DNA of 24,000 nt. It comes from Stutzerimonas stutzeri. GTDB lineage: Bacteria; Pseudomonadota; Gammaproteobacteria; Pseudomonadales; Pseudomonadaceae. The notes beneath the pieces were generated by a model. It did not search any database and was not told where the DNA came from. It was given only the letters and a program-made list of their open reading frames with translations. The DNA lies in contig NZ_CP046902.1 of the NCBI RefSeq assembly GCF_009789555.1, positions 4,168,856 through 4,192,855 on the forward strand, written 5' to 3'. A program made the translations under genes and the position numbers. Positions 11,064-12,338 of this stretch are shown here, in pieces (position 1 is the stretch's first letter; each line of letters opens with the position of its first letter).

Positions 11064-12338
11064 ATGTTCAAGATCAACCCCCTTGTAGCTGCCCTTCTGA
11101 CCGTCGCCGCCACCCAGGCATTCGCGGCGGGAAACACCTCCGAACAACGCCAGAACGGCATCGATAACCTTGCCCAGGTCGAACAGAACGCAGGCACTGG
11201 CAACATGGCCACGCAACTGCAGAGCGGCCTCGGCAACGACGCGATGCTCCAGCAGAACGGCTCGCTTTCCTCGTCGGCCTTGCAGACGCAGATCGCCAAT
11301 TTCCATCAGGCGGACATCAACCAGACGCTCGCCGTGCGCAGCAGCGCGGTGCAATGGCAGAACGGCAAGGCCAACGACGCCGATGCCAACCAGACCGGCA
11401 CCTGGGGCAGCCGCATCGAACAGCGCCAGCACGGTTACGCGAACACCGCCAATGCCGACCAGGCCGGCACGCATGACAGCAGTGCCTCGAGCCGGCAAGA
11501 GGGCAACCACAACCTCGCCTCCAGCTACCAGACCGCAACCCATGGCAGCCAGTCCGCGCTTTATCAGGACGGCACCCTCAACGAGGCCAGCGTCAGCCAG
11601 TCGCTCAGCGCCAGGGATCGCGCGATGATCGATCAACAAGGCAACGAGAACGACGCCGAGGTCGTTCAGAGCTGGAGCTCCGGCTCAGTCGCCGAGATCG
11701 AGCAGGTCGGCAACCTCAACGAGGCATACGTGCGCCAGACCGGCACCCAGCAGGAGGCATACAGCTATTCGGGCGGTGCCTACAACAGCCTGAACATCGA
11801 CCAGCGCGGCGGCTACCAGAACGCGTTCGTCTACCAGCAGGGCGATGAGAACACTGTCGACGTCGGCCAACGCGGCCACGGCAACACCGCCCGCGCAGAT
11901 CAGCACGGTTTCGGCAACGTCGCCGCGTACGATCAGGAGGGCCGCAACCAGACGGCGGCGGTGGCCCAACACGGCACCTACAACGACGCAACCGTTGACC
12001 AGCAGGGCAAGGACAACGCGCTGGACTTCACCCAATCCGGCACCTTCAACAGGCTCACGGCGGTACAGCAAGGCGAAGGCAACCGCATCAGCGGTTCCAG
12101 CAGCCTTGCCAACAATGACGTCGACATCGTCCAGGACGGCGACTTCAACCTCGCCGACGTCAACCAGTTCGGCGACAACCATGCAACCACCGTCGCCCAG
12201 TACGGTGAAACCCATCTGGCGACGGTCCTGCAGAACGGCGCTGGCCACGAGGCATTGGTGGTGCAGAGCGGCATGGGTAACAGCGCGTTGATCAGCCAGG
12301 CAGGCTTCAACAATATGGCAGTCGTCAACCAGCATTGA
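11064..12338 (+). CDS. csgA: CsgA-like major curlin, 424 aa with a greatly expanded repeat array
   Basis: GGAGAG RBS. Signal peptide MFKINPLVAALLTVAATQAFA-AG. The remainder is wall-to-wall S-x5-Q-x-G-x2-N-x-A-x3-Q type units, e.g. SSAVQWQNGKANDADANQ and GSRIEQRQHGYANTANADQ. Confidence 0.9.
   Translation: MFKINPLVAALLTVAATQAFAAGNTSEQRQNGIDNLAQVEQNAGTGNMATQLQSGLGNDAMLQQNGSLSSSALQTQIANFHQADINQTLAVRSSAVQWQNGKANDADANQTGTWGSRIEQRQHGYANTANADQAGTHDSSASSRQEGNHNLASSYQTATHGSQSALYQDGTLNEASVSQSLSARDRAMIDQQGNENDAEVVQSWSSGSVAEIEQVGNLNEAYVRQTGTQQEAYSYSGGAYNSLNIDQRGGYQNAFVYQQGDENTVDVGQRGHGNTARADQHGFGNVAAYDQEGRNQTAAVAQHGTYNDATVDQQGKDNALDFTQSGTFNRLTAVQQGEGNRISGSSSLANNDVDIVQDGDFNLADVNQFGDNHATTVAQYGETHLATVLQNGAGHEALVVQSGMGNSALISQAGFNNMAVVNQH
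11127..12335 (+). repeat. in-frame degenerate tandem coding repeats (curlin repeats, 33-36 nt sub-period)
   Basis: My manual parse of the protein gives about 35 strand units of 11-12 aa, roughly 17 strand-turn-strand repeats. These are protein-level repeats, and the DNA copies are diverged. Confidence 0.8.

What the first reader, a model, noticed from the sequence alone, without database searches (positions are those of the whole stretch)
11064..12338. Large bipartite CsgA: about 17 repeat equivalents, no Gly-rich N22-type segment
E. coli CsgA is 151 aa with five repeats of about 22 aa, preceded by a Gly-rich N-terminal targeting segment. This protein is 424 aa, and its repeats begin two residues after the predicted cleavage site (AFA-AGNTSEQRQNG...). 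My manual parse shows two architectures. Residues ~22-247 are about ten 23-residue canonical units matching S-x5-Q-x-G-x2-N-x-A-x3-Q, for example SSAVQWQNGKANDADANQ, GSRIEQRQHGYANTANADQ, SSASSRQEGNHNLASSYQ and GSVAEIEQVGNLNEAYVRQ. Residues ~248-424 are about 15 back-to-back 11-residue x-G-x2-N-x-A-x3-Q units, for example QGDENTVDVGQ, RGHGNTARADQ and HGFGNVAAYDQ, interrupted once by GNRISGSSSLANNDVDIVQ. Variable repeat numbers are known outside enterobacteria. The two-module design and the lack of a separate CsgG-targeting segment still raise questions about secretion through CsgG and about the monomer fold.
Basis: partly seen in the sequence, partly recalled or inferred. Interest (0 to 1): 0.6.

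Follow-up and report, generated by a model that had tools for sequence, protein, structure and literature searches.

The report
Eighteen-repeat two-module curli subunit, Stutzerimonas
This gene encodes the main building block of curli biofilm fibres in a Pseudomonas stutzeri-group bacterium; it is long (18 repeats) and built from two repeat styles, but long curli subunits without the E. coli-type targeting segment are already well documented, so it is largely ordinary.

Summary
ORF 11064-12338 (+) encodes a 424-aa curlin, the last gene of a same-strand csgD-E-F-G-B-A locus in a Stutzerimonas genome. After a 21-residue signal peptide, the mature protein consists of 36 strand-plus-arc half units, which make 18 curlin repeats. 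Repeats 1-9 (residues 22-225) are 23 aa long and E. coli-like (non-centrosymmetric). Repeats 10-18 (226-423) are 22 aa long, with both strands carrying the same x-G-x-x-N-x-A-x-V-x-Q unit (centrosymmetric). AlphaFold2 predicts exactly 36 strands (pLDDT 94). There is no Gly-rich N22.

[quoted passage not shown] A 15.5-repeat curlin has a cryo-EM structure (8C50, E=6.5e-28 to this protein). P. stutzeri csgDEFGBA loci were catalogued in 2012.

The two-module layout is conserved in every Stutzerimonas orthologue examined. It was absent from 155 distant relatives, and I did not find it described.

The upstream csgB appears frameshifted, and the genome has a single csgG. This scan has already judged giant curlins on other DNA to be ordinary.

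Verdict: new member of a known kind, modest interest.

The parts
11052..11057 (+). Shine-Dalgarno-like GGAGAG, 6 nt upstream of the csgA ATG
   Evidence: Read directly from the sequence.
11064..11126 (+). Sec-type signal peptide, residues 1-21 (MFKINPLVAALLTVAATQAFA, then A); cleavage predicted after AFA
   Evidence: By inspection it has a basic N-terminus, a hydrophobic core and an A-x-A site. Mean identity across 24 orthologues is 79%. AF2 pLDDT is below 60. No signal-peptide predictor was available.
11127..11738 (+). N module: repeats R1-R9 (residues 22-225). The period is 23 aa (12+11), with arc 1 x-G-x-x and arc 2 of 5 residues. Motif a starts with Asn in R1-R2 and with Ser (Asp in R8) in R3-R9. 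Gln sits at the second core position in R1-R5.
   Evidence: Lag-23 autocorrelation z=11.9. Parse; automatic parse. AF2 strand starts are spaced 11/12 alternately. Core hydropathy of motif a is 0.46 against 2.45 for motif b.
11739..12332 (+). C module: repeats R10-R18 (residues 226-423). It consists of eighteen 11-residue x-G-x-x-N-x-A-x-V-x-Q units, which make nine 22-aa centrosymmetric repeats. It ends on a full repeat followed by His424.
   Evidence: Lag-11 z=12.4 and lag-22 z=10.9. Parse. AF2 strand starts are spaced 11 throughout, with pLDDT 95-98. Matches PDB 8c50.
11127..11153 (+). First mature half unit, AGNTSEQRQ (residues 22-30); candidate recognition or interface element (inferred)
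   Evidence: It is the most conserved half unit among 24 orthologues: identity 0.77, and surface positions 0.75 against mostly 0.1-0.4 in other units. AF2 places it in the solenoid at pLDDT about 75.
10550..11016 (+). csgB (minor curlin or nucleator), apparently frameshifted. The signal-peptide part is in one frame (ATG 10550). The curlin part is in the next frame and ends at 11016. A 1-nt gap relative to 7 orthologues lies at about 10630-10647.
   Evidence: Three-frame translation, DNA alignment, Pfam Curlin_rpt on the mature part. 7 of 41 positions that are otherwise at least 95% conserved are changed, against 0-2 in the genus orthologues whose csgB reads in frame.
9623..10459 (+). csgG, outer-membrane curli channel; the only CsgG in the genome
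   Evidence: PF03783 at 5.8e-77. The whole-genome search finds one match.
9177..9599 (+). csgF
   Evidence: PF10614 at 5.4e-30.
8797..9180 (+). csgE
   Evidence: PF10627 at 4.8e-36. NCBIfam CsgE equivalog scores 147.8 bits, above its cut-off of 137.
8144..8800 (+). csgD-like LuxR-family regulator
   Evidence: GerE at 2.4e-16. NCBIfam CsgD scores 84 bits, below its cut-off of 250.

Best explanation
This is the major curlin subunit (CsgA orthologue) of the type VIII secretion (curli) locus of a Stutzerimonas species.

Proposed mechanism:
1. A Sec signal peptide (residues 1-21) takes it to the periplasm.
2. It stays unfolded there and passes the CsgG channel with the help of CsgE and CsgF (inferred from the family).
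3. Outside the cell it folds into a two-sheet beta-solenoid of 36 strands, that is 18 rungs. At the usual 4.8 A per rung this is roughly 85-90 A long.
4. Monomers stack head to tail into amyloid fibres.

The solenoid has two stretches. Nine 23-aa E. coli-like repeats have a Ser/Gln-rich, more polar first strand and one 5-residue arc. Nine 22-aa symmetric repeats have two 4-residue x-G-x-x arcs and a hydrophobic Ala/Val/Ile core.

There is no separate N22, as in most curlins. Targeting to CsgG most likely uses the very N-terminus of the mature chain, the conserved AGNTSEQRQ half repeat. This is an inference. It draws an analogy with E. coli, where CsgG binds a six-residue stretch at the start of mature CsgA.

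The fold, repeat count and family membership rest on computation. Secretion, targeting and fibre formation are inferred.
For: - Family and context: Pfam Curlin_rpt E=1.4e-41. The neighbours are csgB, csgG, csgF, csgE and csgD, all on the same strand.
- Solved relatives: phmmer against PDB finds 8c50, the Pontibacter 15.5-repeat curlin fibre, at E=6.5e-28 over residues 69-424. E. coli CsgA (8enq) scores 2.6e-6.
- Structure prediction: the full-length AF2 model has pLDDT 91.6 and pTM 0.86. The mature-only model has pLDDT 94.2 and pTM 0.87, with 36 strands. Strand starts are spaced 11/12 alternately up to mature residue 188 and 11 thereafter, and no residue falls below pLDDT 50.
- Repeat statistics.
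- Conservation: full-length orthologues occur in 18 of 24 genomes of the genus and in 28 GTDB loci, most titled Stutzerimonas. The 12/11-then-11/11 pattern is kept in all of them and in a 43%-identical in-genome paralogue.
- Repeat indels: length differences among relatives are whole repeats matching each module's period: +44 aa in the C module, -69 aa in the N module, and -23 and -22 aa.
- Selection: only 4 of 133 strongly conserved positions differ in this copy, all mild changes.
- Terminal units are the most conserved: unit 1 at 0.77, units 35-36 at 0.70 and 0.64. This fits their role as subunit interfaces.
- Literature: Sleutel 2023, Dueholm 2012, Sewell 2020 and PMC13579223.
Against: - No expression, secretion or fibre data exist for this or any Stutzerimonas curlin in the searched library.
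- The adjacent csgB looks frameshifted and carries radical changes at conserved sites. Nucleation from this locus may therefore be impaired in this strain.
- The NCBIfam CsgA equivalog score is 130 bits, below its cut-off of 160. The CsgB model scores slightly higher at 150 bits. Assignment as 'A' therefore rests on gene order and size.
- The genome holds at least three further curlin-repeat subunits. Which of them is the main fibre subunit is unknown.
- Foldseek against PDB returned no meaningful match.
- The targeting role of residues 22-30 rests on conservation only.
Confidence: 0.85

Rival explanations
1. The two-module layout is only a historical by-product. Two separate amplifications, of a 23-aa unit and of a 22-aa unit, were frozen in the ancestor of Stutzerimonas and Aquipseudomonas. 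The layout has no function beyond making a long solenoid. This rival concerns the meaning of the bipartite design, not the protein's identity.
For: - Both repeat lengths lie within the published 23 +/- 5 range, and both arc types are described.
- Orthologues gain or lose whole repeats in either module and remain intact ORFs.
- AF2 predicts one continuous solenoid without a break at the junction.
- No DNA-level repeat is left.
Against: - The pattern and the repeat count are held almost constant (424-428 aa) down to 43-50% identity, and also in an old paralogue.
- Surface residues around the junction (units 15-21) are unusually conserved, at 0.59-0.78 in units 15, 17, 19 and 21.
- Motif a of the N module has a distinctly polar core with invariant Q-x-Q doublets.
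Confidence: 0.5
2. The two modules have separate jobs. The polar, less regular N module would act as a slow-folding gatekeeper, or as a CsgE/CsgG/CsgB-interacting part. The hydrophobic, symmetric C module would be the fast amyloid core that templates the next subunit.
For: - Core hydropathy is 0.46 for N-module motif a against 2.5-2.9 elsewhere.
- AF2 confidence rises from about 75-87 over the first 60 mature residues to 95-98 in the C module.
- The C module is the part that matches other curlins best: 8c50, 8enq and most of the 150 listed representatives.
- In E. coli, different repeats are known to differ in amyloidogenicity, through gatekeeper residues. This is established knowledge cited in Dueholm 2012.
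Against: The evidence is purely compositional, with no experiment behind it. The N module is also predicted as a regular solenoid. Its middle units (7-13) are the least conserved part of the protein, which argues against a specific binding role there.
Confidence: 0.15
3. In this strain the locus is decaying. With csgB broken, CsgA is no longer assembled into cell-bound fibres, and the gene is on its way to becoming a pseudogene.
For: - The csgB signal peptide and curlin body lie in different frames, with a 1-nt gap against 7 orthologues.
- 7 of 41 conserved CsgB positions are changed, including arc Gly to Arg and terminal Gln to Leu.
Against: - csgA, csgD, csgE, csgF and csgG are intact and match their families over full length.
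- CsgA shows no excess of changes at conserved sites: 4 of 133, three of them shared with its nearest relative.
- A second locus encodes an intact CsgB-like protein that could nucleate.
- The frameshift could be an assembly error.
Confidence: 0.1

Closest known systems
Pontibacter korlensis CsgA 'R15.5' (UniProt A0A0E3UX01; cryo-EM fibre PDB 8C50; Sleutel et al. 2023, PMC10192328)
   Same: Both are long curlins with no N22-like segment. R15.5 has 15.5 repeats, is centrosymmetric (both strands N-x-psi-x-psi-x-Q) and forms a two-sheet beta-solenoid. Direct sequence similarity is E=6.5e-28 over residues 69-424, and both proteins end in ...VNQH.
   Different: R15.5 is centrosymmetric throughout and ends on a half repeat, giving 2-1 screw stacking. 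Its repeats are 23 aa (11+12). The present protein has 18.0 repeats and ends on a full repeat. Only its second half is centrosymmetric, with 22-aa repeats. Its first half is E. coli-like.
E. coli / Salmonella CsgA (5 repeats plus N22; PDB 8ENQ/8ENR)
   Same: The N module has the same repeat grammar: S-x5-Q-x-G-x-x-N-x-A-x3-Q, 23 aa, Ser at the start of motif a, a narrow x-G-x-x arc 1 and a wider 5-residue arc 2. The accessory set CsgB/E/F/G/D is also shared.
   Different: This protein has 18 repeats instead of 5 and no Gly-rich N22. The genes form one same-strand csgDEFGBA array rather than divergent csgBAC / csgDEFG. No csgC follows csgA. The NCBIfam CsgA equivalog cut-off is not reached, at 130 against 160 bits.
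P. stutzeri curli loci catalogued by Dueholm et al. 2012 (PMC3521004, Table S1: strains A1501, ATCC 17588, DSM 4166)
   Same: Same genus group. The accession numbers are consecutive in the order csgD, E, F, G, B, A, and each strain has three extra CsgA/B homologues, as seen here (compare). The paper notes that P. stutzeri is the Pseudomonas with csgD next to the csg genes.
   Different: The paper lists accessions only. It does not describe the 18-repeat, two-module layout. I could not retrieve those sequences to compare them directly.
Halomonas-type curlins with overlapping half repeats (Dueholm 2012); Hs13/Am18-CsgA shown to form fibres (PMC13579223)
   Same: An 11-residue sub-periodicity lies inside 22-aa repeats. 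Repeat numbers of 13-18 were shown to be secretable by the E. coli CsgEFG machinery and to bind Congo red.
   Different: Those experiments grafted the E. coli Sec signal and N22 onto the homologues, so native N22-less targeting was not tested. A mixed-class layout is not reported for them.

Membership tests
Curlin subunits (CsgA/CsgB superfamily, Pfam PF07012 Curlin_rpt) | Curlin repeat profile match above the curated cut-off | tested here: met
   140.5 bits against a cut-off of 20.7, E=1.4e-41, 8 stretches.
Curlin subunits (CsgA/CsgB superfamily, Pfam PF07012 Curlin_rpt) | Tightly spaced N/S-x-psi-x-psi-x-Q strands joined by x-G-x-x(-x) arcs, with repeat length 23 +/- 5 | tested here: met
   36 units were parsed, with repeats of 23 and 22 aa. 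Q-x10-Q occurs 24 times against 6.2 +/- 2.2 in shuffles.
Curlin subunits (CsgA/CsgB superfamily, Pfam PF07012 Curlin_rpt) | Predicted strand-arc-strand beta-solenoid | tested here: met
   The AF2 mature model has pLDDT 94.2, pTM 0.87 and 36 strands in register with the parse.
Curlin subunits (CsgA/CsgB superfamily, Pfam PF07012 Curlin_rpt) | Sec signal peptide | tested here: met
   By inspection only: MFK, a hydrophobic core, then AFA followed by A, conserved in all orthologues. No predictor was run.
Curlin subunits (CsgA/CsgB superfamily, Pfam PF07012 Curlin_rpt) | Forms Congo-red/ThT-positive, SDS-resistant extracellular fibres | not testable with these tools
   This needs an experiment. No paper on Stutzerimonas curli was found.
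Major subunit CsgA of a type VIII secretion locus | Encoded directly after csgB and next to csgE, csgF and csgG | tested here: met
   csgD-E-F-G-B-A lie on one strand at 8144-12338. However, csgB appears frameshifted.
Major subunit CsgA of a type VIII secretion locus | NCBIfam equivalog NF007470 (enterobacterial CsgA) above its cut-off | tested here: not met
   130 bits against a cut-off of 160. The CsgB model NF007506 scores 149.9 against 165. It is therefore not an equivalog of enterobacterial CsgA. It is a family member named 'A' from its position and size.
E. coli-type CsgA with N22 targeting segment | Gly-rich degenerate first repeat (N22) preceding R1, disordered in models | tested here: not met
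   The first 22 mature residues hold 2 Gly and a regular curlin motif. AF2 pLDDT is about 75-83 there and the residues form strands. For comparison, Sleutel 2023 reports pLDDT 47 for E. coli N22. According to Sleutel 2023 this feature does not define the family.
Sleutel 2023 sequence classes (CS / NCS / D) | CS: core residues of motif a repeat in motif b. NCS: they do not. | tested here: inconclusive
   The protein fits neither class as a whole. In R3-R9, motif a starts with Ser (Asp in R8) and motif b with Asn or His. R1-R5 carry Gln at psi2 of motif a, which is NCS-like. In R10-R18, motif a begins with Asn, Gln or His, motif b with Asn or His, and the psi positions are mostly Ala, Val, Ile or Leu, which is CS-like.

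The most novel reading that the evidence does not exclude
The conserved hybrid layout might be functional. It consists of an E. coli-like, polar-cored N half and a symmetric, hydrophobic C half. The first two repeats revert to the Asn-type strand and so match the C-terminal end. On this reading the protein would be a single subunit that separates a regulated, slow-folding 'handle' from a fast-templating amyloid core. The handle would serve recognition by CsgG/CsgE or by the nucleator. The conserved first half repeat AGNTSEQRQ would be the native N22-less targeting signal, shared by the several curlin paralogues that must all use the genome's single CsgG. If shown, this would give a concrete model for how the majority of curlins, which lack N22, are recognised.
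Probability: 0.15. Interest if true: 0.45.

Novelty: new member of a known kind. Interest (0 to 1): 0.25.

Why it matters
As it stands, this is a well-behaved long curlin from a genus whose curli loci were already catalogued, so it changes little.

Its modest value is as a clean natural test case. One polypeptide contains both published curlin repeat classes in equal numbers, has a sharp junction, and is conserved across a genus. It also sits in a genome where one CsgG channel must serve at least four curlin-type subunits that all lack N22.

That makes two general open points about curli easy to test with ordinary constructs. The first is what replaces N22 as the CsgG/CsgE recognition element in most bacteria. 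The second is whether symmetric and asymmetric repeats differ in nucleation and templating.

Tried and rejected
- The word-indexed search (search for homologous proteins) returned only distant curlins at or below 33% identity. The exhaustive representative search returned only three short N-terminal matches at 43-59% identity and distant curlins at or below 40%. Neither returned a full-length Stutzerimonas orthologue. An exact look-up showed this protein and two orthologues are not in that collection. Orthologues came from the genome search and the search for related loci instead.\n- Foldseek of the AF2 model against PDB gave only generic three-sided beta-helices at TM 0.1-0.3 and did not recover 8c50. 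I rejected it as uninformative. The sequence search did find 8c50.\n- Tandem Repeats Finder on the DNA found nothing. The repeats exist only at the protein level.\n- The promoter/terminator scan over 7900-12600 gave numbers at or below shuffle expectation. I draw no conclusion about transcription units.\n- My first similarity-based classifier of 23- versus 22/11-periodicity mostly measured how self-similar the repeats are. I replaced it with a motif-spacing parser.\n- I considered that the 11-residue units were a separate architecture or a different fold. I rejected this because AF2 and the literature show they are the two strands of ordinary 22-aa rungs.\n- I considered that the 'interruption' at 336-357 was an insertion.
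Full report
**What is there.** The ORF at 11064-12338 (+) translates to 424 aa plus a stop. It is the last gene of a same-strand array whose products match these families:
- CsgD-like LuxR regulator (8144-8800)
- CsgE (8797-9180; above the NCBIfam equivalog cut-off)
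- CsgF (9177-9599)
- CsgG (9623-10459)
- a CsgB-like curlin (ending at 11016)
- this protein (Pfam Curlin_rpt, E=1.4e-41)

Record titles of related loci identify the genus as Stutzerimonas, the Pseudomonas stutzeri group. A GGAGAG Shine-Dalgarno-like sequence lies 6 nt upstream of the ATG.

1. BLOSUM autocorrelation against 1000 shuffles. Residues 22-247 peak at lag 23 (z=11.9), with lag 22 at z=-1.1. Residues 248-424 peak at lag 11 (z=12.4) and lag 22 (z=10.9), with lag 23 at z=-0.8. A sliding window puts the change at residues ~215-230.
2. Cutting the chain after each ladder Gln gives 36 half units. Units 1-18 (22-225) alternate 12 and 11 residues. Units 19-36 (226-423) are all 11 residues.
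3. A parser that scores only the published generic motif (x-G-x-x-N-$-psi-$-psi-$-Q), not this protein's own repeats, finds 35 of the 36 units. The spacing is 12/11 alternating, then 11 throughout. Shuffled sequence gives 12.1 +/- 2.3 units, maximum 19.
4. AlphaFold2 on the mature chain with 24 orthologues gives pLDDT 94.2 and pTM 0.87. It predicts exactly 36 strands, whose starts are spaced 11/12 alternately up to mature residue 188 and 11 thereafter.

The protein therefore has 18.0 curlin repeats: nine of 23 aa followed by nine of 22 aa. The supposed interruption at 336-357 is in register: it is two normal 11-residue units, the first ending in Ser instead of Gln. No DNA-level tandem repeat remains.

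**What the two modules are.** In the terms of Sleutel et al. 2023, a curlin repeat is motif a, arc 1, motif b, arc 2.
- N module: motif a starts with Ser (Asp in R8) in R3-R9, as in E. coli CsgA. Arc 2 has five poorly conserved residues. In R1-R5 the second core position of motif a is Gln, giving Q-x-Q doublets that are invariant in the nine closest orthologues. Core hydropathy of motif a is 0.46, against 2.45 for motif b. This is the non-centrosymmetric (NCS) style.
- C module: both strands read N/H/Q-x-A/V/L-x-V/I/A-x-Q, both arcs are x-G-x-x, and core hydropathy is 2.5-2.9. This is the centrosymmetric (CS) style.

The 11-residue units are thus not a new architecture. They are the two equivalent strands of 22-aa rungs. 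R1 and R2 start motif a with Asn, like the C module, so the two ends of the monomer resemble each other. That fits head-to-tail stacking, but it is an inference.

**No N22.** The first 22 mature residues (AGNTSEQRQNGIDNLAQVEQNA) contain 2 Gly and already carry the curlin motif. AF2 builds them into the solenoid at pLDDT 75-83, with no residue below 50. Sleutel et al. report pLDDT 47 and disorder for E. coli N22.

**Conservation.** Full-length orthologues of 424-428 aa occur in 18 of 24 genomes sampled from the genus, down to 43-50% identity. They also occur in 28 GTDB species loci. They align with almost no gaps.

The 12/11-then-11 spacing pattern is present in three groups:
- all the Stutzerimonas orthologues
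- a 426-aa in-genome paralogue (43% identity)
- Aquipseudomonas

It is absent from a Halopseudomonas relative and from all 155 distant representatives of at least 250 aa.

Length variants differ by whole repeats of the local period:
- +44 aa in the C module
- -69 aa in the N module
- -23 and -22 aa in Aquipseudomonas

This copy differs at only 4 of 133 strongly conserved positions, so it is under constraint. The most conserved half units are the first (22-30; identity 0.77, surface positions 0.75) and the last two (0.70 and 0.64). The middle of the N module is the least conserved.

**Comparison with what is known.**
- Sequence search of the PDB finds 8c50, the cryo-EM fibre of the 15.5-repeat Pontibacter curlin, at E=6.5e-28 over residues 69-424. 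E. coli CsgA (8enq) scores 2.6e-6.
- Sleutel et al. surveyed 8079 curlins with 4-62 repeats, with secondary maxima near 15 and 22 and a repeat length of 23 +/- 5. They defined the CS, NCS and degenerate classes. [quoted passage not shown]
- Dueholm et al. 2012 reported curlins of up to 22 repeats and 529 aa. They noted overlapping half repeats in Halomonas and argued that subunits cross CsgG unfolded. Their Table S1 lists CsgB, CsgA, CsgD, CsgE, CsgF and CsgG with consecutive accession numbers, plus three extra CsgA/B homologues, for three P. stutzeri strains.
- A 2026 paper shows that curlins of 13-46 repeats are exported and form Congo-red-binding fibres in E. coli when given the E. coli Sec signal and N22.
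- In E. coli, the part of N22 that CsgG binds is a six-residue stretch at the very start of the mature chain.

Large size, absence of N22 and the monomer fold are therefore already explained in general terms. The still-open point, what replaces N22, applies to most curli systems and not specially to this one. I did not find a description of a subunit that combines the NCS and CS classes. A search of Sleutel 2023 for 'hybrid', 'mixed' and 'chimer' found nothing relevant, and no paper on Stutzerimonas curli turned up.

**Mechanism proposed.** The steps are Sec export, passage of the unfolded chain through the single CsgG with CsgE and CsgF, extracellular folding into an 18-rung solenoid, and head-to-tail polymerisation. 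The conserved first half repeat is my candidate for the CsgG/CsgE recognition element. Family membership, repeat count and predicted fold are shown by computation here. All functional steps are inferred from the family.

**Context that bears on function.**
- The csgB just upstream looks broken. Its signal-peptide part (ATG 10550, MNAQWIARQSPVPLLPAALTSPALHAAG...) is in one frame and its curlin part in the next. All seven aligned orthologues show one more base at ~10630-10647.
- The csgB curlin part also carries 7 changes at 41 positions that are at least 95% conserved elsewhere. These include arc Gly to Arg and the terminal VRQYR to VRLYH. The genus orthologues whose csgB reads in frame show 0-2 such changes. 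This favours a real pseudogene over an assembly error.
- The genome has only one CsgG.
- A second partial locus encodes a CsgD-like regulator, CsgE, a CsgB-like curlin, a 309-aa CsgA-like curlin and a borderline CsgH-like protein. It has no csgF or csgG.
- Two orphan curlins of 426 and 347 aa lie elsewhere.

**Verdict.** This is a new member of a known kind whose orthologues were catalogued in 2012. Its conserved, apparently undescribed mixed-class repeat layout makes a convenient test case but not a surprise. Other agents in this scan reached the same 'documented, ordinary' verdict for giant curlins on other DNA.

Noticed in passing
window 10550-11016 (+): csgB appears frameshifted. The signal peptide is in one frame and the curlin body in the next, with a 1-nt gap against 7 orthologues at about 10630-10647. 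In addition, 7 of 41 otherwise conserved positions are changed, including Gly to Arg in arcs and the final VRQYR to VRLYH. This is either a pseudogene or an assembly indel. Reads could not be consulted.
   Followed up: partly
L042 5176-8454 (-) = G000:C1:1094175-1097453: A second, partial curli locus encodes a CsgD-like LuxR regulator (280 aa), CsgE (140 aa), a CsgB-like curlin (206-aa ORF), a CsgA-like curlin (309 aa) and a 146-aa protein. The 146-aa protein scores 34.3 bits on the NCBIfam CsgH chaperone model, whose cut-off is 35. The locus has no csgF or csgG. The genome has a single csgG, the one in the window.
   Followed up: partly
L041 8572-9852 (+) = G000:C1:3897571-3898851; L043 6889-7932 (+): Two orphan curlin genes lie away from any csg gene. 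One is a 426-aa paralogue (43% identity) with the same 23-aa-then-22-aa layout and a very similar signal peptide and first repeat; it is also conserved across the genus. The other is a 347-aa curlin.
   Followed up: partly
window 11127-11429 (residues 22-122): Q-x-Q doublets end motif a of repeats R1-R5 (Q28/Q30, Q51/Q53, Q74/Q76, Q97/Q99, Q120/Q122). They are invariant in the nine closest orthologues. They imply a Gln at a normally hydrophobic core position in five consecutive rungs.
   Followed up: partly
window 12168-12266 (residues 369-401): His replaces Asn at the ladder position in three consecutive C-terminal units, as another first-reader note (e1-2575437) also saw. H373 replaces an Asn that is nearly invariant in orthologues, and the change is shared only with the nearest relative (L014).
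   Followed up: partly
L015 6365-7768; L035-L037 6001-7068; L039 6377-7546: Natural repeat-number variants exist within and near the genus. They are 468 aa (+44 aa, two C-type repeats), 356 aa (-69 aa, three N-type repeats) and 390 aa (-23 and -22 aa). All are whole-repeat steps.
   Followed up: yes
L020 (Stutzerimonas stutzeri CLN100), upstream of 6339: The N-terminal part of the csgB reading frame in this strain also reads as nonsense (CCRRCSSRHQ...) instead of the usual signal peptide. This hints at a second, independent csgB frameshift in the genus.
   Followed up: no
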